The notes beneath the pieces are model-generated. The model was given only the letters and a program-made list of their open reading frames with translations. It ran no database searches and was not told where the DNA came from. Positions 16,905-52,569 of a stretch of DNA of 64,000 bases are shown here, piece by piece. The first letter of the stretch is position 1. Each line of letters opens with the position of its first letter. The translations under genes and the position numbers were made by a program. Source of the DNA: Zetaproteobacteria bacterium CG06_land_8_20_14_3_00_59_53 (GTDB lineage Bacteria; Pseudomonadota; Zetaproteobacteria; Mariprofundales; Mariprofundaceae); assembly GCA_002779605.1 (NCBI GenBank), contig PEWE01000033.1, forward strand, positions 11,686-75,685, given 5' to 3'.

Positions 16905-16934
16905 AAAAAAACGAGGCGGCCAAAGGCCGCCTCG
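16905..16934 (-). terminator. rho-independent terminator after the hflKC-DUF2065 operon
   Basis: Minus strand: CGAGGCGGCC-TTT-GGCCGCCTCG followed by T7. Confidence 0.8.
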
Positions 16935-23822: not shown

Positions 23823-24161
23823 ATGGAAGAAGCGATCTGTTTCAAGAAGACAGCGGCGACCATCACCGATGTGGGGATCATTGCCTTTGCTATCGGTGCC
23901 AATATTTATATCGCAAGCGTATTACCGGATCCGAAAATGGAGGCGCTGGCCGGCTCCGGATACTGGAACCTTGTCGTCATCGCCCTGTTTACAGTACTCT
24001 TCGTGCGTCTTTTCAGAATGCGGGAACTGGTCACCAACACCGATTTCGCAAAAAAATCATCCTGCATCACTGCTCAGCGCATCCCGCCATATCGACTACA
24101 AACAGTTGGACAGCATCCGGCTGAACAACAATCGCCGGTTGGTCTGCCTCGATACCCCTGA
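23823..24161 (+). CDS. small two-TM membrane protein, probably frameshifted at an A7 run (reading continues in another frame to 24321)
   Basis: AGGAG lies 6 nt before ATG 23823. Two TM helices. The region is lower in GC than its neighbours. See the finding on the A7 frameshift. Confidence 0.45.
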   Translation: MEEAICFKKTAATITDVGIIAFAIGANIYIASVLPDPKMEALAGSGYWNLVVIALFTVLFVRLFRMRELVTNTDFAKKSSCITAQRIPPYRLQTVGQHPAEQQSPVGLPRYP

Positions 24162-33065: not shown

Positions 33066-36000
33066 ATGGGTAATAGCATCGCAGCAGTCGGATTCAGCGA
33101 GCTTGAGGATTCGTTTCAGGCTGGCTTCGAGGCGGCCAGGCAGGCCTCTTCCTCGGTGGGCAACCACAGCGGCTGGAAGCTTGCCATGCTCATGTCCACC
33201 GCACGGCACGATCCGATGCGCCTGCAGGAAGGCGTGCAGAGCGTCATCGGCCGGGGCTGCGAACTGATCGGCGGCTATGCCGTCGGCATCATCACCAACG
33301 ACAAGCTGGCCTACGATGGCTTCCAGGTCGGCATCCTGCTGCTCTCGCCTTCAGCCGGAGCCGTCTTCGATATCTTCTCTGAAGGCGGGCTGGCCGACAA
33401 CGAAGCAAAGGTCGGCGAGAAACTCGCAAAAAGCATCGGCCGGCACAGCTTCGATACCGAAAACCCTTCACTGGTGCTGCTATACGACGCGGTGAACCGC
33501 ATGTCCGGGCGATTCAAGATGAACATGGCCACCTATGTGCTCGACGGGATGAAACAGAGCATGGATCGCTGGCCGCCGACGCTGGTCGGTGCCGGCATGG
33601 TCGGCGATATGCAATGCCGCGAAACCTTCCAGTGGTGCAACGGCCGGTTGCATCAGCAATCCGCCATCGCACTGGCCCTTTCCGGCTCGCTGCGCATCGA
33701 TGCCACCATCATGCACGGTTGCCGCCCGGCCAGCCGTTACCACCGCATCACCAAATCGGAAGGCAATGTGGTGCTGGAGATCGACGGCGTACCCGCACTG
33801 GACAAGATTTCGGAGTTGCTCGGACCGGATTCCGGCAAGACCTGGCGCGACTACAGCTTTTTCGTCACGCTCGGAGTGAATCGCGGCGATAAATTCGGCG
33901 AATTCGTTGAAAACAACTACGCCAACCGGCTATGCATGGGCGTGGACCTCGAGCGCAAAGGGCTGGTGATGTTCGAGCCGGATCTGGTGCCCGGCTCTGA
34001 AGTTCAGTTGATGCGCCGCGATGTGAACTTCGGCTATATCCATGAAAAGGTGAATGAGGTGCTGGCACGCGTCGGCGACCGCAAGCCGGTGTTCGCACTA
34101 TACATCGACTGCGCCGGCCGCGCCGCCTCCTACTCCGGCTTCGACGACGAGGATGCCGAGGAGGTGCAGCGCACGCTCGGCGATATCCCCCTGCTCGGCT
34201 TCTATACCGGCGTGGAGATCGGCCCGGTGGCCGGTGAACCGATGGCGCTGGACTGGACAGGCGTGCTGGCCATCGTCAGCGAAGGTGAACCCGGCTCACT
34301 GGCTTCCCCCGTTGCAACCGGGCAAGCATCCATCGAACTGCTGCCGCTGGCCGGCGATGCAGCGACCGGCGACATCAACCCGGACGAACTGGACGAACGT
34401 ATCCGCGTCTCCGAGGAACGCTTTCAGGCGCTGCAAAGCGAGAGCGATTACTACGCCGGCCTGTCCGACGAACTCGCCGGAAAGAATCTCAGGATGGATT
34501 CCCATCTGACCGCGCTGAACCACAGGCTGCACACCAAGAAACAGGGCCTCGCCATTCTCTCCCGACTGCACGACACATTCGGAACTCCAAGCCCCTTCGA
34601 AGAGCTGTGCCGCACCACGATGCAGGAGATCAACACCGAGCTGAACATGGACAAGACCATGGTCCTGCTTGAGCGCGACGGCGCATTCTGCCCCGCATAC
34701 TGGAGCGGCTATACCGAAGCCGAAGCCTTCAGCCTGGAGCACATCCATCTGCCGCTGCTAGCTGAGTGGATGAAGGTCAACTTCCTGCTAGGCAACCGCA
34801 ACACGCGAGGCGAGGCCGATGTGCAGCAGATCCGTAACATGACCCGCCTGCCCTACTTTGTCTGTGTGACCATTCGCGAAGCGGGAAAAATCACCGGCCT
34901 GATGCTTTCCGGGCGCATGAAAGAAGCGATGCCCTTCTATCCGCCACTGGTCGAAGAGGATGCAAGCACCCTGATCACCATCGCAGCCTTTCTCTCGGTC
35001 ACCGACCAGATGAACCGGCAGCGTCTGCAACTCGACCAGCTCAACGCCTTGAGCAGCAGCGGCGCGAAGCATTCGGTCACGGCTAATGTCGCGGCCACTG
35101 GTGCGACAAAAACGGCGGACGACAGCAGTGATGCTGCGGATGACCCCTATCAGGACATGAGTAGCGACGAATTACGCGACTGCCTGCGCAATATTGCTGC
35201 GGAACTGGCCGATCAGAAGCGCTCCAGCGAATACTACGGCTCGCTGGCCGATGAACTGGCCGGCCAGAATGTGAAAAAAGACTCCTCGCTGTCGATGCTC
35301 AACAACGAGCTGCGCATCAAGCGGCAGGGCTTCGCCATCCTTTCCGAGCTGCAGGACAGGCTGAACAGCCAGCAGACCATGGACAAGCTCTGCCCGCTGG
35401 TCATTCGCAGCATCAATATGACCCTGAACATGGACAAATCCATGGTGCTGTTCGAGAGCGAGGGCGTGCTGCGTCCTGCATTCTGGAGCGGTTTCTCCGA
35501 AATGGAGGTCTACGACATCGAGGACCTCGAAATGCCCATGGACGAGGACTGGATGGAAAACGGCCACCTGCTGGCCAACCGACGTACCGGCAAGGACGAG
35601 ATGGTGCTGCGCGCCAAGAACTTCATCCCCATCCCGTTCTTCATCGCCGTGCCCATCCGGCAGGACGATCGGACCATCGGCCTGCTGGTTTCCGGGCGGC
35701 TGAAAGAGGCCAAGCCCTTCTATCCGCCTCTGGCCAGGGAGGATGTGAACACATTCACGGCCATTTCGGGCTTCCTGTCCTCGACCGACCAGCTGAACCG
35801 GCAGCGCGACCACCTGCAGGAGATGAATCTGAATCTGGAGAAGAAGGTCAAGGAGCGCACCTCCGACCTGAGCGACGCGCTGGGCAAGCTGGAAGTGAAG
35901 AACCGCTTCATCAGGAAAACCTTCGGGCGTTACATGTCCGACGCGGTGGTGGAAAGCATCCTGGAAACCCCGGAAGGCCTGCATCTCGGAGGCCAGACGC

Positions 36001-36938
36001 TGCCGGTGACCATCCTGTTTTCCGATCTGCGCGGCTTCTCGGCTATTTCCGAATCCCTGCCGCCGGAACACGTCGTCGAACTGCTGAATATTTATCTTGA
36101 GGAGATGACACGTATTGTCTTCAAGTATTCCGGCACCATCAATGAGTTGATGGGTGATGGTATCCTGATCGTGTTCGGCGCGCCGAGCGCGAAACCGGAC
36201 GATGCCGACCGCGCCGTGGCCTGCGCCATGGAAATGCAGATGACCATGAACAAGGTCAACGCACGCATCACCGCCAAGGGTTTTCCGGAGCTGCACATGG
36301 GCATCGGTATCAACACCGGCCAGGTGGTCGCCGGCAACGTCGGCTCGGACATGCGCACCAAGTACGCCGTGGTGGGCAGCAATGTGAATCTTGCAGCGCG
36401 CGTGGAGTCGTTCACCGTCGGCGGCCAGGTGCTGGCCACACAATCCACACTCGATGCCCTGACCACCGAGATCAAGGTGGCCGGCGAGTTTTCCACCAAC
36501 TTCAAGGGCATCAAGGAACCGGTCGTCATGCACGACATCACTGGCATTAACGGAGATTTCAAGCTGCAACTGCCCGAGAAGGTCATCGAATACCGGAAAC
36601 TGGCGAACGGCTTGCCGATAAGGGTGGAACTGGTCGAGGGCAAGTCCTCGCAAGGCAGACAGATCACCGGTGCCATCCTCGCGCTGGCCGACCACTACGC
36701 CATGCTTGCCGTGGACGGCAAGCTGGAGAAACATGCCAACATGAAGATTCACCTCGATTCGCCGGGGCTTCCCGCGGACACCCATGTGTATGCCAAGGTC
36801 ATGAAGGACTGTGGCAAAGATTGCGGAAAGGGTTGCAGCGAGGTGAACTTCACCTATATGAGCCGGGAGACCCGCATCTTCCTGGACCAGATCAAAACCG
36901 TACAGGGTCAACAATGGGGAGACGATGCAATTACATGA
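33066..36938 (+). CDS. multidomain class III nucleotidyl cyclase: FIST_N/FIST_C sensor, two (coiled-coil + GAF-like) modules, cyclase catalytic domain, C-terminal PilZ-like beta domain
   Basis: FIST pattern in aa 1-400. Internal 261-aa duplication. Catalytic motifs FSDLRGF, ELMGDGILIVFG, GINTGQVVAGNVG, VGSNVNLAARVES. The PilZ-like call for the last ~120 aa is tentative. Confidence 0.85.
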   Translation: MGNSIAAVGFSELEDSFQAGFEAARQASSSVGNHSGWKLAMLMSTARHDPMRLQEGVQSVIGRGCELIGGYAVGIITNDKLAYDGFQVGILLLSPSAGAVFDIFSEGGLADNEAKVGEKLAKSIGRHSFDTENPSLVLLYDAVNRMSGRFKMNMATYVLDGMKQSMDRWPPTLVGAGMVGDMQCRETFQWCNGRLHQQSAIALALSGSLRIDATIMHGCRPASRYHRITKSEGNVVLEIDGVPALDKISELLGPDSGKTWRDYSFFVTLGVNRGDKFGEFVENNYANRLCMGVDLERKGLVMFEPDLVPGSEVQLMRRDVNFGYIHEKVNEVLARVGDRKPVFALYIDCAGRAASYSGFDDEDAEEVQRTLGDIPLLGFYTGVEIGPVAGEPMALDWTGVLAIVSEGEPGSLASPVATGQASIELLPLAGDAATGDINPDELDERIRVSEERFQALQSESDYYAGLSDELAGKNLRMDSHLTALNHRLHTKKQGLAILSRLHDTFGTPSPFEELCRTTMQEINTELNMDKTMVLLERDGAFCPAYWSGYTEAEAFSLEHIHLPLLAEWMKVNFLLGNRNTRGEADVQQIRNMTRLPYFVCVTIREAGKITGLMLSGRMKEAMPFYPPLVEEDASTLITIAAFLSVTDQMNRQRLQLDQLNALSSSGAKHSVTANVAATGATKTADDSSDAADDPYQDMSSDELRDCLRNIAAELADQKRSSEYYGSLADELAGQNVKKDSSLSMLNNELRIKRQGFAILSELQDRLNSQQTMDKLCPLVIRSINMTLNMDKSMVLFESEGVLRPAFWSGFSEMEVYDIEDLEMPMDEDWMENGHLLANRRTGKDEMVLRAKNFIPIPFFIAVPIRQDDRTIGLLVSGRLKEAKPFYPPLAREDVNTFTAISGFLSSTDQLNRQRDHLQEMNLNLEKKVKERTSDLSDALGKLEVKNRFIRKTFGRYMSDAVVESILETPEGLHLGGQTLPVTILFSDLRGFSAISESLPPEHVVELLNIYLEEMTRIVFKYSGTINELMGDGILIVFGAPSAKPDDADRAVACAMEMQMTMNKVNARITAKGFPELHMGIGINTGQVVAGNVGSDMRTKYAVVGSNVNLAARVESFTVGGQVLATQSTLDALTTEIKVAGEFSTNFKGIKEPVVMHDITGINGDFKLQLPEKVIEYRKLANGLPIRVELVEGKSSQGRQITGAILALADHYAMLAVDGKLEKHANMKIHLDSPGLPADTHVYAKVMKDCGKDCGKGCSEVNFTYMSRETRIFLDQIKTVQGQQWGDDAIT
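34383..35840 (+). repeat. tandem intragenic duplication (period 783 nt = 261 codons) encoding two coiled-coil + GAF-like modules
   Basis: DELDERIR...YYAGLSDELAGKN...LNMDKTMVLLE...FYPPL...TDQMNRQR aligns with DELRDCLR...YYGSLADELAGQN...LNMDKSMVLFE...FYPPL...TDQLNRQR. Two similar 69-codon antisense ORFs at 34451 and 35234 show the same 783-nt offset. Confidence 0.85.
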
Positions 36939-38103
36939 TCATGGGGAATCCATTACCAGCTACGATGAGCTGGTCAACGCACTGCGCACGGCGGTGCAAG
37001 TGGAACTGGGGGTGCTGCCGCCCTATTTCACGGCGATGTATTCGATCAGGGATCAGGGCAGCCCGGAGTTCCGGCTCATGCGCGGCGTGCTGATGGAGGA
37101 GATGCTGCATCTGGCGCTGAACTGCAACCTGCTCAACGCTATCGGTTCGGCACCTTTGATCCAGCCGCCCTACACGCCGAATTACCCCCTGCCGCTGCCG
37201 CACTATCATCAGGGCTTCGAGGTGCATCTTTCGCCGCTCACCCGGGAGTTTGCACGCGACACACTGATGGTCATCGAGCGCCCGTCATGGACGGTGCACG
37301 ATTCTCATGACGCAGCACCCGCCCAGGCCTCGGGCTGGGAAACACTGGGACAGTTCTACAAGGGCATCATCGACGGCTTCATCACCGTGCACAAACAGAA
37401 ACCCGACCTGTTCGCCCATGCGGCGCGGCAATACGGCACCAACGGCATCTACTCCAACGGCGGCGGTTATCTGAAGGCCGTGGGCAGCCTGCGCGACGCC
37501 ATCATCGCCATCGAGGAAAACCTCATCCAGACCCAGGGCACCAAGGGGAAAGAGTACCAGCCATGCGGTCCGGACGGTGCGATGGAACTGTCGCACTTCG
37601 ACAACTTCCGCGAGATCGCCGACGGCAACATACCCATCGGCGAGGTGTACCCGATGCTGCCGGACATCAAGGCCCATCAACTCTCCGGCCCGCTGAAAGC
37701 ACTATCCGGCCTGTTCGACGACTGCTGGCGCCTGTTCCTCGATGCACTGAACGAGACCTTCAGCAACCCGTTCAACTACAGCATCTACTTCACCCAATCC
37801 ATGTGGCTGATGAAAAAGGTGTTTCCGGAACTCGCCGTCCTTTTGATGTCCTCACCCATCGACCCGAACCAGCCGCAACTTGGCAACGCCGGCCCGGCCT
37901 TCTACTGCGATCCAAATGCGAAAACGCGCAGCATCAGCGAGGTGCTGGGCGATGCGGTGCTGGTGATGTCCATGACCGACCGGCCGGAATGGAAGAAGGC
38001 CGTGGGCTCCACCATCGAGACTCTGGAATACATGATGGTCGAACGCCGCCGCATCGAGGAGCGCAGCGACTACAGCCATGCCGCGGAGTCGTCCGCGGCA
38101 TAA
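36925..38103 (+). CDS. stand-alone ferritin-like domain protein (VioB/RebD-type 'Ferritin-like' family)
   Basis: VQVELGVLPPYFTAMYSI...MEEMLHLALNCNLLNAIGSAP matches the signature I recall from the C-terminal domain of VioB (LELSVMLQYLYAAYSI...EEMIHYLVVNNLLMALG). Its start overlaps the cyclase stop by 14 nt. Confidence 0.65.
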   Translation: MQLHDHGESITSYDELVNALRTAVQVELGVLPPYFTAMYSIRDQGSPEFRLMRGVLMEEMLHLALNCNLLNAIGSAPLIQPPYTPNYPLPLPHYHQGFEVHLSPLTREFARDTLMVIERPSWTVHDSHDAAPAQASGWETLGQFYKGIIDGFITVHKQKPDLFAHAARQYGTNGIYSNGGGYLKAVGSLRDAIIAIEENLIQTQGTKGKEYQPCGPDGAMELSHFDNFREIADGNIPIGEVYPMLPDIKAHQLSGPLKALSGLFDDCWRLFLDALNETFSNPFNYSIYFTQSMWLMKKVFPELAVLLMSSPIDPNQPQLGNAGPAFYCDPNAKTRSISEVLGDAVLVMSMTDRPEWKKAVGSTIETLEYMMVERRRIEERSDYSHAAESSAA

Positions 38104-38130
38104 GCAACCGACTCTGCCTCACTGAAATGC

Positions 38131-38161
38131 ACAGCGCGCCGGGTGTCCCCCGGCGCGCTGT
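38131..38161. terminator. GC-rich hairpin between convergent genes
   Basis: ACAGCGCGCCGGG-tgtcc-CCCGGCGCGCTGT (13-bp stem) followed by TTCGT. The U-tract is weak. Confidence 0.55.
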
Positions 38162-38181
38162 TTCGTGGGACTTCCCCGACC

Positions 38182-39661
38182 TTACATCAGATCGAGCAGG
38201 TAACGCGGCGTCGGGTGACGCCTGGCCACCTTCAGCTTGTCCGCCACGTCATCTGTGAGATAGATGTGCGGATTCTCATGCGCATCGTCAAGCACATGCT
38301 TGGCCACGTGGGTACCCGAGATCCAGCATTCCTCGTGCAAGCCGGCCCCTTGGGTGTAGCCACCGGTGAAATACACATTGTCGATGCCTTTCATCATCAC
38401 CGGCGCGATATTGTCCTGTGCCTTGGTTGCCTCGACGTTCAGGCGGTAGTGATAGAATTTGAACATCGTGCAGTCCCCGAAAGTTTTGTTGTTCAGACGG
38501 CAGATATCGGGGACCGGATTCAGCGGATTCAGGGTCAGGAAGAACTGCGGTGTCATACCCCGGTATGTCGGATTCTTCGGATCGTTCTGGTGGCGATTCG
38601 CCCAGTAGGTGATGTTGTAGCGTTCCGGACTGTCACGGTCGGCAAACACGTTGATGTTGTAGGTGGCCCACAGGTTCGGGTCCGGCGGCATATTCGCCGT
38701 GGATGTATGCGCCACCACCTCGTCGGTTTCCATGCTCATGGCGTTTTTCAGCTGTTTCACCATCGCGGGAACCTGCTCCTGGCGATAGTAGATCTCCTCC
38801 AGCGTGCGTGTCTGCACGGCCACGATCACCTTGTCGAAATCCTCGGTCTGCGGCTTGCTGCCCGCAGCGGCATCCACCGGCAGCGTGTACACACGCACCT
38901 TGCCGCTATCCAGCAACTCGATCTGCGCCTTCACCCCACGGAAGATCACCTGTGGCAGCCCATGCTGCAGATAGGCGGAAAGCTTGCGGATCCAGTTCAC
39001 CGTACCTCCCACCCAGTACTGACGCTCGGGGGGCAGGACCGTGCCGTAACCTTCCTGCAGGTAATAGTAGTGCGCCACCTGACGCGCCGGCATCTCGCTG
39101 GGCCGGATCATGCCGGCGAAGTACATGCCGTTGATGCGCGGGTACAGGTTCAGATAGACGTAGTCATCGGGAAAGCCGGCCCACTTCACGAACTGGTCCA
39201 TGGTCCACCATTGCATGTCCTTGTGCTGATCCATGTCTTCCAGCTTCAGGTAACGCTTGATCGCATCGCCGAACATGGCGGCACCCTTGAGCACCCCCTC
39301 GGGGGCATTGTGCCCCATCTGCGGCCGGTCACTGGAGGGCATGGTGTAGCCCACGACGGTTTCCGGATCGAATGCCCCGCCCGGGCCGATGTTGGAATAA
39401 CCTGTGGAATCCTCCAGCGGGGCATATTCAACACCCAGCCTGGTGAACACTTCCATCAGGTTCGTATAACTGTTCTTGTTGAAATCGTTGACACCGAGAT
39501 CCACCCAGCGGTTCACCCCGCCGACGTTCAACGGGATCGTTCGGGCGTTACCGCCGACGTTGTGCACCCGTTCGAACACCTTGAACTCATGGTCTTGTTC
39601 TTTCAGATGGTAGGCAGCAGCCAATCCGGACCCCCCCCCCCCCGATAATCGCTACTTTCAT
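38182..39661 (-). CDS. FAD-dependent amine-oxidase-like oxidoreductase (COG2907-like), out of frame at a poly-G tract in the sequence as given
   Basis: ATG 39661 gives MKVAII + G13. With 12 G it reads MKVAIIGGGGSGLAAAYHLKEQDHEFKVFER..GG (FAD beta-alpha-beta), continuous with the 480-codon ORF 38182-39624. C-terminal FTGGYTQGAGLHEECWISG. Confidence 0.75.
39631..39643 (-). repeat. 13-nt homopolymeric G tract (C13 on the plus strand) inside the GxGxxG codons
   Basis: Counted directly: positions 39631-39643 are all C on the plus strand. Confidence 0.95.
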
Positions 39662-39846
39662 GGTTTCCCCCATCGTGATATCCGGTTCATCGTCAACCGC
39701 CATCATGCACGATACATTGAGGTATTATCTCTTTGGAATCGGCATGTTAATGGCACCATATGCATAATCTTGGCAACTTCAAGCCTGCAGAGCTGCCGAC
39801 CTTTTCAGGGCACGTACTTCGCCGGGATTCAATCCAGGCGCGGCGA

Positions 39847-39878
39847 TTCATTGAACAGATCATTTCATTGAACAGATC
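39847..39878 (+). repeat. tandem direct repeat 2 x TTCATTGAACAGATC (17-nt period), each copy with a GATC and a TTCAnTGAA mini-palindrome
   Basis: Copies at 39847-39861 and 39864-39878. They lie 60-90 nt upstream of the osmC paralog 2 start, in the divergent intergenic region shared with the poly-G oxidase gene. Confidence 0.9.
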
Positions 39879-39937
39879 GCTTGAAAGAAACCGGATATTG
39901 CATATGGTTGCTGCTTCAGATGCATCAGGAGGGTGAG

Positions 39938-40501
39938 ATGAATATGGAAACAGGTAATTCGATTGATAACGGTGTCAACGTCGATGCTTTGGTCGGAGCC
40001 CGGTCGGCACTGACTGATGCACCCGAAGCGGCCAGATTCACATGGCGCGCAACCTGCGAATGGAAGAACGGTACGCATACCTATTCAACGGTGGAGAAGT
40101 TTTTCGGCCTTGGCGGAGAACAGCAGCATAAAACCAGGTTCGGATTCGATGCGGACCACCCCGAAATATTTGCATCCGAAGACAACGGGGCCACACCCGT
40201 TGAATACGTGCTGGTCGGACTGGCGAGTTGTTTGACCGGCGGCATCGCAACCATCGCCCAGTACAGAAATATCCAGCTGCGTTCCGTCATCGCAACCGTT
40301 GAAGGCGATATGGACCTGCAGGGCATTCTGGGAATCGACAGTGATGTTCGTAACGGATACGACGGTATCCGTGTCAGCTATAAAATCGATGCCGATGCAA
40401 GCGATGATGATATCAGGGCGCTGGTGGCCCAGTCGCAAAAGCGTTCGGCTGTTTACGACATGCTCACAAGTCCGACCAACGTCACGGTTGTCGTAGAATA
40501 G
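39938..40501 (+). CDS. OsmC-family protein (paralog 2)
   Basis: AGGAGGG upstream of ATG 39938/39944. NGVNVDALVGA...ATPVEYVLVGLASCLTGG... parallels paralog 1. The track start (TTG 39881) is rejected. Confidence 0.8.
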   Translation: MNMETGNSIDNGVNVDALVGARSALTDAPEAARFTWRATCEWKNGTHTYSTVEKFFGLGGEQQHKTRFGFDADHPEIFASEDNGATPVEYVLVGLASCLTGGIATIAQYRNIQLRSVIATVEGDMDLQGILGIDSDVRNGYDGIRVSYKIDADASDDDIRALVAQSQKRSAVYDMLTSPTNVTVVVE

Positions 40502-40509
40502 GCTGAAGC

Positions 40510-41745
40510 ATGCAGACAATCACCACCGTCGTCATAGGCGCCGGTCATGCCGGGCTGGCCATGAGCAAGTATCTTGGTGATCGCTCGATTGAGCATGTCG
40601 TTCTTGAGCGTGGTGAAGTGGCCAATACTTGGAAAACGGAGCGCTGGGACTCCCTGCGGCTGTTAACACCCAACTGGCAATCCCGTCTGCCGGGCTATGC
40701 CTATGAGGGGGATGAGCCGGATGGTTACCGCGACATGCCAGAGACCATTGCCCTGATCGAGCGCTATGCGGATCTCGTTGCAGCACCTGTGCAGACACAG
40801 ACCCGTGTGACCTGTGTTGAGAAAAACGCCACAGGGTACCGGGTTTCCACCACCCGGGGCGAGTGGCAATGCCGCAGCGTGGTGATGGCGAGCGGCGCCT
40901 TCAACAAGGCATCGGTCCCGGCATTCGCTGATCAGCTCCCGGCGTCGATCGCGATGCTCACCCCGACAACGTACCGCAATCCCGGACAGCTGGAACAAGG
41001 GGGCGTGCTGGTGGTCGGCGCTGCGGCAACGGGACTTCAACTGGCCCGGGAGATCCACCTGTCAGGCCGTCCTGTCACCCTGTCCATTGGTGAGCACACC
41101 CGGGTCCCGCGCAGGTACAGAGGCCGTGATATCCAATGGTGGATGGATAAAACCGGGCGCCATGACGAGTCTTTCGAACAGGTCGACGATATTGTCAGGG
41201 CGAGAAAAGTACCGTCCTTTCAACTGATCGGCTCGGCCGAACATGAAATCATCGACCTCAATGCGCTGCGCGACATCGGCATCAGGCAGATCGGACGTTT
41301 TGTCGGCATGCAGAACGGAAAGGGTCTGTTCGCCGGCTCGCTGCATAATCTATGTGATCTGGCGGATCTCAAAATGAACAGGTTACTCGACGCCATCGAT
41401 GCGTGGATCACAGACAATGGCCTGGATCAGGCGGTTGAACCGCCCCGTCGTTTTCCCCCGACTCAGGTGGACCCCTCTCCCCCGCTTTGCATCGATTTTC
41501 ATACAAGCGACATCAGAACGGTTCTTTGGGCAACGGGTTTCAGGCCCGATTATTCATGGTTGAAGGTTCCCGTTTTCGACCATAAAGGACAGATCCGCCA
41601 TAACGGCGGGGTGATCGAAGATGCCCCCGGACTGTATGTGATGGGCCTGCCGTTCCTGCGCCGCCGCAAATCGACGCTTCTGGACGGGGCCGGAGACGAT
41701 GCGCGCGAGCTCAGCGGGCATCTGTTATCTTATCTGCAGGGTTAA
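40510..41745 (+). CDS. class B flavin-containing monooxygenase / CzcO-like NAD(P)/FAD-dependent oxidoreductase
   Basis: Two dinucleotide motifs (VVIGAGHAGLA; VLVVGAAATGLQLA). Starts 8 nt after osmC paralog 2. Confidence 0.75.
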   Translation: MQTITTVVIGAGHAGLAMSKYLGDRSIEHVVLERGEVANTWKTERWDSLRLLTPNWQSRLPGYAYEGDEPDGYRDMPETIALIERYADLVAAPVQTQTRVTCVEKNATGYRVSTTRGEWQCRSVVMASGAFNKASVPAFADQLPASIAMLTPTTYRNPGQLEQGGVLVVGAAATGLQLAREIHLSGRPVTLSIGEHTRVPRRYRGRDIQWWMDKTGRHDESFEQVDDIVRARKVPSFQLIGSAEHEIIDLNALRDIGIRQIGRFVGMQNGKGLFAGSLHNLCDLADLKMNRLLDAIDAWITDNGLDQAVEPPRRFPPTQVDPSPPLCIDFHTSDIRTVLWATGFRPDYSWLKVPVFDHKGQIRHNGGVIEDAPGLYVMGLPFLRRRKSTLLDGAGDDARELSGHLLSYLQG

Positions 41746-41815: not shown

Positions 41816-42631
41816 CTAGAGCGGCATAAAATCCCCGATGCTTGTGGTTCCATCCCTGACGCACAGCAGCGACGATTCGGGTATCTCCGCCCAGTCTTCG
41901 GACATGAAATCCAGCGGTTCGGATACCACGATCACCGCACCTTCGGGCAGCGGTTCGTAGCTGTCATGCAGCTCGCGCAGGGAATGCGGGTGTTTGCTGT
42001 GATACAGGGTGCGTGATTGCCGGTGGCTGGAGTAGCGCACCGCCCAGATACTCGTTCCATCCGTGGCACACGCCGAGAAACAGATCGGCAATTCGATACC
42101 CGCGGCCTGACGGGCGCGCTCCACATGGCCGATGGTCCGGGCCAGTGCAGCGGGAGCGTCTTCGCGCAGCCCGAAGCTCAGGGCGAGAAAAAACAGGGTT
42201 TCGGAATCCGACGAGCCGGCGATTGACGGAAACAATTCGGGGGCGACGTCGAACTGCAACTGCCGCTTCAGTTTAGCGAATTCGGGAATCGATCCGTTGT
42301 GCTGGAACAGCCAGTTCTCGAAACAGAACGGGTGACAGTTGGTGCTCTGCACCGAGGTGCCGGTAGCGGCACGCACATGCGACAAAAACAGCCCGGAGTT
42401 GATATGCGCAGCAAGCGAACGGATGTTTACATCGTTCCATGCCGGCTGAGTGCTATGATAAACACCCGGATTTTTCTGCGCGCCGTACCAGCCGATTCCG
42501 AACCCATCGCCGTTGGTGGTTTCGATGTTTTGCAGCGCGTGCCGGCTCTGATCGATCATCGAGTGTTCCGGATTGGTGAGCAGATCGCTCATCGCAATGG
42601 GTGCCCCACTATAAGCCAGCCAGCGGCACAT
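41816..42631 (-). CDS. class II (Ntn) glutamine amidotransferase-fold hydrolase, EgtC-like
   Basis: Start MCRWLAYSG... gives the obligatory Cys2 nucleophile; GDGFGIGWY. ATG 42631 lies 1 nt after the upstream stop. The track start 42718 is rejected. Confidence 0.75.
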   Translation of the reverse strand: MCRWLAYSGAPIAMSDLLTNPEHSMIDQSRHALQNIETTNGDGFGIGWYGAQKNPGVYHSTQPAWNDVNIRSLAAHINSGLFLSHVRAATGTSVQSTNCHPFCFENWLFQHNGSIPEFAKLKRQLQFDVAPELFPSIAGSSDSETLFFLALSFGLREDAPAALARTIGHVERARQAAGIELPICFSACATDGTSIWAVRYSSHRQSRTLYHSKHPHSLRELHDSYEPLPEGAVIVVSEPLDFMSEDWAEIPESSLLCVRDGTTSIGDFMPL

Positions 42632-42632
42632 A

Positions 42633-43289
42633 TCAGGCAGTGCCGGACCTTTCTTTGGCCGCCACAGTAAGGAAGCCGCGACTCTTTTGCGAGGTCGGGT
42701 CGATCTCGACCAGGGCATCGTGCAGTAGCTCGGCCTTCACCCAGCACGGCGGCAGCTTGAACCGCGCCACATCCATCACCAGAAAGCGATCCTCGGCGCG
42801 GTGATAGGCTGCCACCGGGGAAAAGTGCCCGGCGCCCTCTTCGTTGAACACGCGCCGGTTAAAATCCAGGATGATGCGCTTGCCGTCATGTTGCAGACTT
42901 TCGATCAGGATTTCGCGACAACGGTTCAGGTCGTAATCCGCGCCGAAGTATGTTTCCACTTCCACATCAAGCGCATCCAGAATATCGGCCAGCTGCTCCA
43001 GCGTGTTGCCGCCCATTTCGACGTCCAGCGGACGGCGGCGCTGCAACACGTTGTGCGTGAAAATATTTTCCTGCGTGAACATGGTATACGGATAAATCTG
43101 CGGGTCTTCCGGCGCATCGATGGCCAATGAGTTAAGCACCATCACGCTGCTGGCGATGCCGCAGTAGGTTAGAAACAGCTGGGTCTCGAAATAACGCCCG
43201 ACAGACCAGAAATGGTTTTTAACCTCCGCCGAGTGGAAAAGCTCCGAGCCTTCCGCTGTGTCCAGAAACACAAGGTCGCCTGATTTCAT
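42633..43289 (-). CDS. phytochelatin synthase-like papain-fold enzyme (bacterial half-PCS)
   Basis: Catalytic triad contexts YCGIASSVMVLNSL (Cys), GHFSPVAAYH (His) and VMDVARFKLPPCWV (Asp) match PCS signatures (YCGLASLSMVLNAL, GHFSPIGGY, DVARFKYPPHWV). Confidence 0.8.
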   Translation of the reverse strand: MKSGDLVFLDTAEGSELFHSAEVKNHFWSVGRYFETQLFLTYCGIASSVMVLNSLAIDAPEDPQIYPYTMFTQENIFTHNVLQRRRPLDVEMGGNTLEQLADILDALDVEVETYFGADYDLNRCREILIESLQHDGKRIILDFNRRVFNEEGAGHFSPVAAYHRAEDRFLVMDVARFKLPPCWVKAELLHDALVEIDPTSQKSRGFLTVAAKERSGTA

Positions 43290-51261: not shown

Positions 51262-52569
51262 CTAGCGGCTGACCATCCCCGCTTCCACGTCTTTCAATAC
51301 ATCATGAATCGCTTGAGTAACGACATTTAAATCCTTGGAATCAATCACTAAAGGCGGCATTGTATAAACCAGTTTCCCGAACGGTCTTAGCCACACACCA
51401 TGCTCGACGAACATCGGCTGGATACGTGCCATATCCACCGGCCGGTGCAGTTCAACCACCCCGATGGCACCCAGCACGCGGACATCGGCGACAGCATTAA
51501 GGCCGCGACAGGCTTCAAGTTCGTGTTTCAGCTGCGCCTCGATGGCGTTCACGCGCTGCTGCCACGGAGAGGCCAGCAACAGATCGATACTGGCCAGTGC
51601 CACTGCACAGGCCAGCGGATTGGCCATGAAGGTCGGGCCGTGCATCAGCACCCCACCGTCCTTATGTAACCCGTGCATCACCTCGCTGGTCGTCAGCACG
51701 GCGGCCATGGTCATATAACCGCCGGTCAGCGCCTTGCCGACACACATGATGTCCGGCGAGATCGCGGCATGCTCGCAGGCGAACATGCGACCGGTACGCC
51801 CGAAGCCGGTGGCGATCTCATCCACGATCAGCAGCACATCGCTGGCATCGCAAAGTGCGCGTATACGGCGCAGGAATTCCGCTGCATAGAAACGCATGCC
51901 GCCGGCACCCTGCACGATGGGCTCCAGAATCACGGCAGCCAGTTCGTCGCGATGCGCGCTGATCTTCGCTTCGAAATCGGCAATCTGGGATTCGTTCCAC
52001 TGCGCACTGTCGGGCGCATCGGCGAACAGGTGGTGCGGCAGGACTCCGGCAAACAGATGGTGCATGCCGCCATGCGGATCGCACACCCCCATCGCCCCGA
52101 AGGTATCGCCATGATACCCGTGGCGGATGGTCAGCAGGCGTTTTTTTTCAGGCCGCCCCTGCGCCTGCCAGTATTGCAGCGCCATCTTGATGGCCACCTC
52201 GACCGACACCGAGCCGGAATCGGCGAAAAACACATGTCGCATGCCGGCAGGAGCCATCTGCAAAAGCCGTTCGGCAAGCCTGGCCGCCGGCTCATGGGTC
52301 AGGCCGCCGAACATCACATGCGACATCTTGCGCAGCTGCGCTGCGGCTGCGGCATTGAGTTCGGGCACGTTATAGCCGTGAATGGCACACCACCACGACG
52401 ACATGCCGTCGATCAGTTCCCGACCGTCCTCAAGATACAACCGCACCCCTTCGGCCCGCGCTACGGCGAAGATCTCGGGCGGCGCGGCCATCGAGACATA
52501 GGGATGCCAGACATGCTGTTTCTCGAACGCCTGCCATTCGGCTCTTTCTCCCTCACACATCAGAGACAA
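51262..52569 (-). CDS. bioA: adenosylmethionine-8-amino-7-oxononanoate aminotransferase
   Basis: HVWHPY.SM, class III aminotransferase pattern, [20 protein letters not shown] (PLP Lys). Confidence 0.9.

What the first reader, a model, noticed from the sequence alone, without database searches (positions are those of the whole stretch)
39631..39643. 13-nt poly-G tract puts the FAD oxidase out of frame inside its own Rossmann motif (phase switch or homopolymer error)
The minus strand reads ATG AAA GTA GCG ATT ATC G(13) TCC GGA TTG GCT GCT GCC TAC. With 12 G the product is MKVAIIGGGGSGLAAAYHLKEQDHEFKVFER..GG, a textbook FAD-binding fold continuous with the 480-codon ORF. With the 13 G present here, the ATG frame stops after 24 codons (…CCA TGA), and the long ORF has no ATG or SD of its own. 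Homopolymers this long inside coding sequence are classic slipped-strand contingency switches. They are rare in GC-rich free-living proteobacteria.
Basis: seen in the sequence. Interest (0 to 1): 0.7.

Follow-up and report, generated by a model that had tools for sequence, protein, structure and literature searches.

The report
Miscalled poly-G run in flavoenzyme gene
The 13-G run is in the window, but other assemblies of the same bacterium read G11-T-G or an in-frame G10-T-G there, so the pure 13-G run is almost certainly an Illumina miscall and there is no evidence of an evolved genetic switch.

Summary
In detail: 13 G on the minus strand at 39631-39643, the only G/C run longer than 6 in 64 kb. 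It breaks a 492-codon flavin amine-oxidase gene inside its GxGxxG motif.

The window comes from a Crystal Geyser Zetaproteobacterium that has been assembled many times. I retrieved 26 loci from that population. Their flanks are essentially identical over about 4.4 kb, but the tract is rendered four ways:
- G10-TG, in frame, encoding GGGV as the orthologues do: 2 loci.
- G11-TG: 9 loci.
- G13: 11 loci.
- G14-CC-GGG: 1 locus.

The remaining three loci are a junk contig end and two contig breaks at the tract. Four of the G13 loci also carry duplications, a collapse or N gaps just downstream.

G13 equals G11-T-G with the T read as G. This is the known post-homopolymer GGT-to-GGG error, which is worst on HiSeq 2500, the platform reported for Crystal Geyser metagenomes.

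The open question is G10 (ON) versus G11 (OFF). I favour a real +1 slippage mutation in the dominant genotype (about 0.55) over a purely technical cause (about 0.3). An evolved switch is unlikely (about 0.08): orthologues lack the tract, it is the only one in the window, and the product is a cytoplasmic enzyme.

The parts
39631..39643 (-). The 13-G run as written in the window. It lies in codons 7-11 of the oxidase gene, inside the GxGxxG dinucleotide-binding motif.
   Evidence: It is the only G/C run longer than 6 in 64 kb.
39632..39632 (-). Base suspected to be miscalled: G here (C on the + strand), T in the G10-TG and G11-TG assemblies. It is the second base of the Val codon GTG.
   Evidence: 11 loci carry T at this position with otherwise identical flanks; one lag-1 miscall converts G11-TG into G13.
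39633..39643 (-). Inferred real G run. It is 11 G in most assemblies (out of frame, +1) and 10 G in the in-frame assemblies L002 and L003.
38182..39661 (-). Flavin-containing amine oxidoreductase gene (Pfam PF01593 plus PF13450). It encodes 492 aa from ATG 39661 when in frame. Alternative upstream ATGs at 39673 and 39706 are used by some gene callers (507-aa call). The stop codon is at 38184-38182.
   Evidence: Orthologues at 40-64% identity align over the full length.
39587..39661 (-). Truncated 24-codon reading frame (MKVAIIGGGGVRIGCCLPSERTRP*) produced by both the G13 and the G11-TG forms.
38182..39624 (-). The 480-codon remainder of the gene, whose first possible start is TTG. It would lack strand beta-1 and the Gly-rich loop.
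   Evidence: P0123 and P0129 are the same call in other assemblies.
36925..38103 (+). Convergent neighbour, a Ferritin-like (PF12902) protein. It is part of a neighbourhood conserved with the orthologues.
39881..40501 (+). Divergent neighbour, an OsmC-like protein. The oxidase gene therefore stands alone, and its frameshift has no polar effect on neighbours.

Best explanation
The organism carries a lineage-specific G run followed by T-G (GGG GGG GGG GTG = Gly-Gly-Gly-Val) in the FAD-binding motif of a conserved flavin amine-oxidase-family gene. The run arose from GGG codon choice. Illumina chemistry does not read cleanly through it. The T after the run is often called as G, which is the post-homopolymer or lagging-strand error. 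As a result G11-T-G appears as a pure G13 in this window and in about 40% of the assemblies I retrieved. Reads also degrade after the tract, which produces contig breaks, duplications, collapses and gaps. The pure 13-G homopolymer is therefore not the organism's sequence (shown; about 0.9). Beneath the miscall, most assemblies have 11 G (one too many, gene OFF) and a minority have 10 G (in frame, gene ON). I infer that the 11-G form is a real +1 slipped-strand mutation carried by the dominant genotype. It would be a recent and in principle reversible inactivation at an accidentally hypermutable run, and not a switch maintained by selection. The 10-G contigs are then either a real minority genotype or -1 slippage products from library PCR. 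The confidence figure applies to this whole statement, including the inferred part.
For: (1) 26 loci from the same population have flanks essentially identical to the window over about 4.4 kb. Only three loci show 1-2 stray mismatches, and L001 carries one 3-nt indel 1.8 kb upstream. The loci differ recurrently only at the tract. (2) G13 and G11-TG have the same length and differ only by T to G. L011 shows two further changes to G at exactly the cycles where a strand lagging by one would show G. L012 and L032 show GGGGTG to GGGGGG and AAGGTG to AAGGGG nearby. (3) L009 ends in G-rich junk at the tract, and L014 and L015 break at it. L001 and L012 carry tandem mis-joins, L032 a collapse of about 60 nt, and L033 two N gaps, all within 300 nt downstream. 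(4) The substitution of the base after a homopolymer by the homopolymer base is documented. GGT is the most error-prone trimer and is worst on HiSeq 2500 (PMC8002175). HiSeq also shows a G bias after GGG (PMC4787001). Crystal Geyser metagenomes were sequenced on HiSeq 2500 with 150-bp reads (PMC6792436). (5) The intact alleles P0122 (7 contigs) and P0124 (NCBI OIQ01734.1) read IIGGGVSGL. In 102 homologues the fourth motif residue is I, V, L or A and never G. (6) For a real +1: no G12 rendering was seen, although G12 is what G10-TG plus the miscall would give. G13 is what G11-TG plus the miscall gives. Out-of-frame calls occur on at least 100 contigs against 8 in-frame ones. (7) Against selection for a switch: orthologues use GGC GGA GGA ATT or GGT GGT GGC GTC, and the window has no other tract.
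Against: No reads were available, so the G10/G11 question rests on assembled consensus sequences only. L009 shows that at least some reads crossing the tract lag by a whole cycle, so an apparent +1 could in principle be produced by the sequencer. The remaining 480 codons are intact and identical in all assemblies, which fits a functional gene as well as it fits a very recent inactivation. The contig counts are not independent samples of cells. They come from overlapping samples re-assembled by several pipelines, and the look-up tool collapses similar places. The platform is documented for the 2018 time series only, not for every sample.
Confidence: 0.55

Rival explanations
1. Everything is technical. 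Every cell carries the in-frame G10-T-G and an active oxidase. Both the extra G and the T-to-G change arise during library amplification, sequencing and assembly.
For: In-frame contigs exist in three independent sources: ENA, NCBI GCA_001873825.1 and JGI. The site is clearly a sequencing trouble spot. L009 shows reads that lag by about one cycle after the run. The rest of the gene is intact and conserved. Error rates of NGS rise with repeat number, and PCR slippage inflates apparent variation 20-35 fold (PMC4965091).
Against: It needs an insertion-type artefact to win the consensus in over 90% of assemblies made with different assemblers, including clean G11-TG contigs. Polymerase slippage at G11-length runs is biased towards deletions, not insertions (PMC3401435, for in-vivo slippage). 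G10-TG plus the known miscall predicts G12, which was never seen.
Confidence: 0.3
2. It is a genuine evolved contingency locus. Slipped-strand mispairing toggles the oxidase between ON (G10) and OFF (G11) at high frequency, and selection maintains the tract because switching is useful.
For: An intragenic G10/G11 run is in the length range that switches at 1e-4 to 4e-3 per division in Campylobacter jejuni (PMC3401435). Both an ON and an OFF length are seen in an otherwise clonal population. The run is improbable given the codon usage.
Against: Orthologues at 42% and 62% identity have no tract. No other tract of 7 or more G/C exists in 64 kb. The product is a cytoplasmic flavoenzyme, not a surface or restriction-modification protein. 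The most conspicuous variation (T to G, other bases to G, junk, mis-joins) is not slippage. The length variation cannot be separated from technical noise.
Confidence: 0.08
3. The window is literally right. A real allele with an uninterrupted G13 exists in part of the population.
For: G13 is the consensus in 11 of the 26 retrieved loci from several pipelines.
Against: It would be the only recurrent SNP in about 4.4 kb across 26 loci. It sits exactly at the position and in the direction of the best-known Illumina systematic error. It co-occurs with further changes to G and with mis-assemblies. It also replaces a Val that is I, V, L or A in 102 of 102 homologues.
Confidence: 0.03
4. The 11-G gene is still expressed through recoding. 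RNA polymerase slippage or +1 ribosomal slippage on the G run restores the frame in a fraction of products.
For: This is inference only. A run of 11 G offers many identical GGG codons for re-pairing. From my own knowledge, long homopolymers can be rescued by transcriptional slippage in some bacteria, but the described cases involve A/T runs.
Against: There is no stimulatory element, no conservation of the tract, and no expression data. I know of no evidence for efficient slippage on G runs.
Confidence: 0.03

Closest known systems
Illumina post-homopolymer (GGT to GGG) systematic base-calling error and the local mis-assembly it causes
   Same: The miscalled base directly follows a G run and is replaced by G. 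Further miscalls occur where a strand lagging by one cycle would show G. Read quality collapses after the run. The platform is HiSeq 2500, where the GGT bias is strongest (PMC8002175, PMC4787001, PMC6792436).
   Different: The error is strong enough here to become the assembled consensus in a large share of independent assemblies, and to break or scramble contigs. The run (10-11 G) is much longer than the 3-5-mers on which the error was characterised.
Poly-G/poly-C contingency loci of Campylobacter jejuni (for example capA G11, cj1139 G8) and Neisseria meningitidis
   Same: It is an intragenic mononucleotide G run of 10-11, near the 5' end of a gene, in which a change of one repeat switches the frame ON or OFF. 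Both lengths are seen in otherwise identical genomes (PMC3401435).
   Different: Those genomes carry some 29 such tracts, mostly in surface-structure and restriction-modification genes, and the tracts recur across strains. Here there is one tract in 64 kb, in a cytoplasmic flavoenzyme, absent from orthologues, in a 59% G+C free-living iron-oxidiser lineage. No switching has been measured.
Ordinary frameshift pseudogenes at homopolymers, and assembly frameshifts flagged by annotation pipelines
   Same: It is a single +1 in a homopolymer in an otherwise intact, conserved ORF. Gene callers respond with a series of shortened calls of 483, 480, 465, 444 and 424 aa.
   Different: The in-frame form co-exists in assemblies of the same clonal population, so the lesion is either very recent, reversible, or not real.

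Membership tests
SSR-mediated phase-variable (contingency) locus | Mononucleotide tract of about 7 or more units within the reading frame or promoter | tested here: met
   G10-G11, followed by T-G, lies in codons 7-10 in all assemblies.
SSR-mediated phase-variable (contingency) locus | Repeat-number variation among otherwise identical genomes, with both ON and OFF lengths present | tested here: inconclusive
   G10 (in frame) and G11 (+1) both occur with essentially identical flanks. Only assembled consensus sequences were available, and PCR or sequencing slippage can give the same picture (PMC4965091).
SSR-mediated phase-variable (contingency) locus | Variation consists of gain or loss of repeat units only | tested here: not met
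   The window's G13 differs from G11-TG by a T-to-G substitution. L011, L012 and L032 carry further substitutions to G.
SSR-mediated phase-variable (contingency) locus | Tract retained in orthologues or related strains | tested here: not met
   Gallionellaceae read GGC GGA GGA ATT, and the other Crystal Geyser Zetaproteobacterium reads GGT GGT GGC GTC.
SSR-mediated phase-variable (contingency) locus | Several such tracts per genome, concentrated in surface or restriction-modification genes | tested here: not met
   There is one tract in 64 kb, and the next longest G/C run is 6. The gene is a cytoplasmic flavin amine oxidase. Only 64 kb of the genome could be examined.
SSR-mediated phase-variable (contingency) locus | Measured high, reversible switching rate | not testable with these tools
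   This needs cultures, single cells or read-level data.
Illumina post-homopolymer miscall or assembly artefact | The substituted base equals the preceding homopolymer base, with no change in length | tested here: met
   G11-T-G and G13 have the same 13-nt length.
Illumina post-homopolymer miscall or assembly artefact | Independent assemblies of the same DNA population disagree at that base while agreeing elsewhere | tested here: met
   At this position 11 loci have T and 12 have G. Across roughly 4.4 kb of flank there are 0-2 mismatches per locus.
Illumina post-homopolymer miscall or assembly artefact | Collateral signs of read degradation at the site | tested here: met
   Junk contig end (L009), contig breaks (L014, L015), duplications (L001, L012), a collapse (L032) and N gaps (L033).
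Illumina post-homopolymer miscall or assembly artefact | Low base quality and strand bias of the variant in the reads | not testable with these tools
Flavin-containing amine oxidoreductase (Pfam PF01593) with N-terminal Rossmann GxGxxG | Full-length match to the family model above the curated cut-off | tested here: met
   74.7 bits against a cut-off of 19.8, model positions 2-443 of 443. NAD_binding_8 scores 50.8 bits.
Flavin-containing amine oxidoreductase (Pfam PF01593) with N-terminal Rossmann GxGxxG | Intact G-x-G-x-x-G loop contiguous with the rest of the protein | tested here: not met
   Not met in the window as written, where the frame breaks inside the loop. Met in the G10-TG assemblies, which read IIGGGVSGL.

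The most novel reading that the evidence does not exclude
The G10/G11 difference is real, within-population, reversible switching. On this reading an uncultivated, free-living, iron-oxidising Zetaproteobacterium in a subsurface aquifer uses a poly-G tract to turn a cytoplasmic flavin amine oxidase ON and OFF. The oxidase belongs to a conserved cluster with Ferritin-like, FIST-cyclase and OsmC genes. That would be a contingency locus outside host-associated bacteria and outside surface or restriction-modification functions.
Probability: 0.08. Interest if true: 0.5.

Novelty: not a real feature. Interest (0 to 1): 0.12.

Why it matters
The main value is as a caution. One hard-to-sequence G run has produced at least ten different protein calls (507 to 424 aa) for the same gene in public databases, along with duplications, collapses and gaps in deposited MAGs. 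Anyone screening metagenome assemblies for phase-variable tracts or pseudogenes would be misled by this site. If the 11-G form is real, it is an ordinary recent slippage frameshift. The finding would carry biological weight only if read-level data showed a genuine, condition-dependent G10/G11 mixture.

Tried and rejected
These samples are evidently not in those collections.

2. No assembly shows G12, and 0 of 102 homologues have Gly at that position.

3. I considered that the G10 and G11 contigs might be different strains. That is rejected, because the flanks are identical over about 4.4 kb.

4. I tried to place the enzyme more precisely. NCBIfam gave only N-terminal Rossmann hits far below the cut-offs. 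PDB sequence search gave only residues 2-78 against amine oxidase LkcE, E 6e-6. There is no specific functional assignment beyond PF01593.

5. I checked whether other homopolymers in the window break genes: T8 at 52141, and A7 at 16905 and 24050. Each lies within an ORF that continues through it, so the problem is specific to this site.

6. The lag-1 phasing model is a simplification. It favours G11-TG as the template of the G13 and G14 renderings, but it cannot exclude reads in which most strands lag.

Full report
**Observation**

On the minus strand the window reads ATG (39661-39659) AAA GTA GCG ATT ATC, then 13 G (39643-39631), then TCC GGA TTG GCT. With 13 G the ATG frame stops after 24 codons at TGA 39589-39587. 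With 12 G a continuous 492-aa product results. The listed 480-codon ORF (38182-39624) has only a TTG as its first possible start.

The 12-G product matches Pfam Amino_oxidase over the whole model (residues 11-457, 74.7 bits) and NAD_binding_8. NCBIfam and PDB give only generic N-terminal Rossmann hits.

The run is a strong outlier:
- The next longest G or C run in 64 kb is 6.
- A G10 pattern is expected 0.2 times per window by dinucleotide-preserving shuffling.
- GGG is only 16% of Gly codons in the window's long ORFs.

**Where the window comes from**

The repaired protein retrieved a 90%-identity cluster of 17 sequences. They come from Crystal Geyser "CG_" Zetaproteobacteria MAGs (NCBI PIO90031.1, PIU69433.1, OIQ01734.1 and others), JGI metagenomes, ENA re-assemblies and Logan per-run assemblies.

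The members are the same protein with different N-termini: 507, 506, 498, 483, 480, 465, 444 and 424 aa. Two of them, P0122 on 7 contigs and P0124 on 1, are intact. They read MKVAIIGGGVSGLAAAY, with Val at the fourth motif position and not a fourth Gly.

**The tract in independent assemblies**

I fetched 26 loci of this population. Their flanks match the window over about 4.4 kb. Three loci show 1-2 stray mismatches, and L001 has one 3-nt indel 1.8 kb upstream. The population is essentially clonal, and the tract is its only recurrently variable site.

Between ATTATC and CCGGATTGG the loci read as follows:

| Rendering | Loci | Count |
|---|---|---|
| G10-TG-T, in frame | L002, L003 | 2 |
| G11-TG-T | L004-L008, L020-L022, L024 | 9 |
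| G13-T | L001, L010, L012, L013, L016-L019, L023, L032, L033 (and the window) | 11 |
| G14-CC-GGG | L011 | 1 |
| G-rich junk at a contig end | L009 | 1 |
| Contig starts right after the tract | L014, L015 | 2 |

Four of the G13 loci are also mis-assembled within 300 nt downstream of the tract:
- L001 and L012 carry tandem duplications. The L012 copy has another GGGGTG to GGGGGG change.
- L032 has a collapse of about 60 nt plus an AAGGTG to AAGGGG change.
- L033 (GCA_002323725.1) has two N gaps with duplicated sequence.

No locus shows G12.

**What the 13 G is**

G13 and G11-T-G have the same length and differ only by T to G at window 39632. In a simple model the called base is either the in-phase base or the base of a strand lagging by one cycle. 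Under that model G13 follows from G11-TG by one miscall. L011 follows from G11-TG by three miscalls, each at a cycle where the lagging strand shows G.

[quoted passage not shown] HiSeq data also show a G bias and a "GGG" motif before errors (PMC4787001). The Crystal Geyser time series was sequenced on HiSeq 2500 with 150-bp reads (PMC6792436).

I conclude that the pure 13-G homopolymer is a base-calling and assembly rendering of an interrupted tract (about 0.9).

**What the intact gene looks like**

The in-frame allele is ATC GGG GGG GGG GTG TCC GGA, encoding IIGGGVSG.

The orthologues have no tract:
- Gallionellaceae (62% identity): GGC GGA GGA ATT.
- A second Crystal Geyser Zetaproteobacterium (42% identity): GGT GGT GGC GTC.

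The run is therefore a lineage-specific by-product of GGG codon choice at a conserved Gly-Gly-Gly-Val.

**The remaining question: 10 G or 11 G**

By protein class, in-frame calls sit on 8 contigs. Out-of-frame calls are listed in at least 100 places: P0121 in 49 index blocks, P0127 in 32, P0128 on 11 contigs and P0129 on 8, among others.

Arguments that 11 G is the real dominant form:
- The known miscall applied to G10-TG predicts G12, which is never seen. Applied to G11-TG it predicts G13, which is common.
- Clean G11-TG contigs come from several assemblers.
- Slippage at runs of this length is biased towards loss, not gain. In C. jejuni, G11 shows 23:1 deletions (PMC3401435).

Arguments that it could be technical:
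- The L009 junk end shows reads that lag by about a full cycle after the run.
- NGS error rises with repeat number, and PCR slippage inflates apparent variation 20-35 fold (PMC4965091).
- The other 480 codons are intact.
- The contig counts are not independent samples.

My odds are:

| Explanation | Probability |
|---|---|
| Real +1 slippage mutation in the dominant genotype, with the gene OFF and the G10 contigs a real minority or -1 slippage products | about 0.55 |
| Wholly technical, with the true genome G10-TG | about 0.3 |
| Evolved contingency switch | about 0.08 |
| Literal G13 allele | about 0.03 |
| Rescue by recoding | about 0.03 |

**Mechanism and consequence**

If 11 G is real, translation from ATG 39661 ends after 24 codons. 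Any product started at the GTG (483 aa) or the TTG (480 aa) would lack strand beta-1 and the first glycines of the GxGxxG loop that binds the ADP part of FAD. From general knowledge of the Rossmann fold, I infer that such a product is inactive.

The gene stands alone, divergent from an OsmC gene and convergent with a Ferritin-like gene, so no polar effect on neighbours is expected. A G10-G11 run mutates fast in vivo where this has been measured: 1e-5 in mismatch-repair-proficient meningococci, and up to 4e-3 per division in C. jejuni. Some real heterogeneity is therefore expected, whether or not it is useful to the organism.

**Comparison with known systems**

The site resembles the poly-G contingency loci of Campylobacter and Neisseria only in having an intragenic G run whose ±1 changes toggle the frame. 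It fails the other membership tests that could be run here. Its variation is not repeat-number change only, the tract is not conserved in orthologues, and no other tracts are nearby. The gene is also not of the usual functional class. It meets every testable criterion of the Illumina post-homopolymer artefact.

**Verdict**

The finding as stated, a 13-nt pure poly-G, is not a real feature of the organism. Beneath it lies a real G10/G11 run that is hard to sequence, and its frame status needs reads to settle. Interest is low.

Noticed in passing
window 33066-41745; L025-L027 and L028-L031: The oxidase sits in a gene neighbourhood that recurs in a Gallionellaceae MAG and in a second Crystal Geyser Zetaproteobacterium. 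Both groups are known as iron oxidisers, which is my own knowledge and was not tested here. The neighbourhood comprises a flavin amine oxidase, a Ferritin-like PF12902 protein, a large FIST-domain signalling protein (adenylate/guanylate cyclase here, SpoIIE phosphatase in Gallionellaceae), OsmC and a Pyr_redox_3 flavoprotein (MSMEG_0569-like, 345 bits, below the cut-off). Its function is unknown.
   Followed up: partly
window 33066-36938 (+) and 36925-38103 (+): The 1290-aa FIST/GAF/cyclase ORF overlaps the start of the Ferritin-like ORF by 14 nt, which suggests translational coupling. The cyclase protein appears to contain an internal duplication: two similar coiled-coil-plus-GAF-like segments, '...SDYYAGLSDELAGKNLRMDSHLTALNHRLHTKKQGLAILSRL...' and '...SEYYGSLADELAGQNVKKDSSLSMLNNELRIKRQGFAILSEL...'.
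   Followed up: no
window about 41489 (inside the Pyr_redox_3 gene 40510-41745 +); L001 about 4070: There is a 3-nt length difference in a short A/T run between the window (A3 in oxidase-sense orientation) and JGI contig Ga0210016_1000003 (A6). It gives a 411-aa versus a 412-aa product. It could be a real strain indel or another assembly quirk. Only L001 reached this far.
   Followed up: partly
window 41816-43289 (-): A phytochelatin-synthase-family protein (PF05023, E 7e-55) lies next to a class-II glutamine amidotransferase that resembles EgtC (179 bits, below the NCBIfam cut-off). In L001 a CN_hydrolase and a DUF4438 protein lie a little further along. This may be a thiol or peptide-processing cluster.
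   Followed up: no
public records: NCBI GCA_002323725.1 DCPS01000022.1 (L033); JGI Ga0210016_1000003 (L001), Ga0210039_1000026 (L012), Ga0210049_1000004 (L032), Ga0100388_10000264 (L009): Deposited assemblies carry duplications, a collapse, N gaps and a junk contig end within about 300 nt of the tract. Databases therefore hold at least ten different N-terminal versions of one protein, including the chimeric P0001 (VFERVHNVGGNARTIP fused to SGLAAAY).
   Followed up: yes
window 52141-52148 (T8), 16905-16911 and 24050-24056 (A7): These are the only other homopolymers of 7 or more in the window. Each lies inside an ORF that continues through it, so none appears to break a gene.
   Followed up: partly
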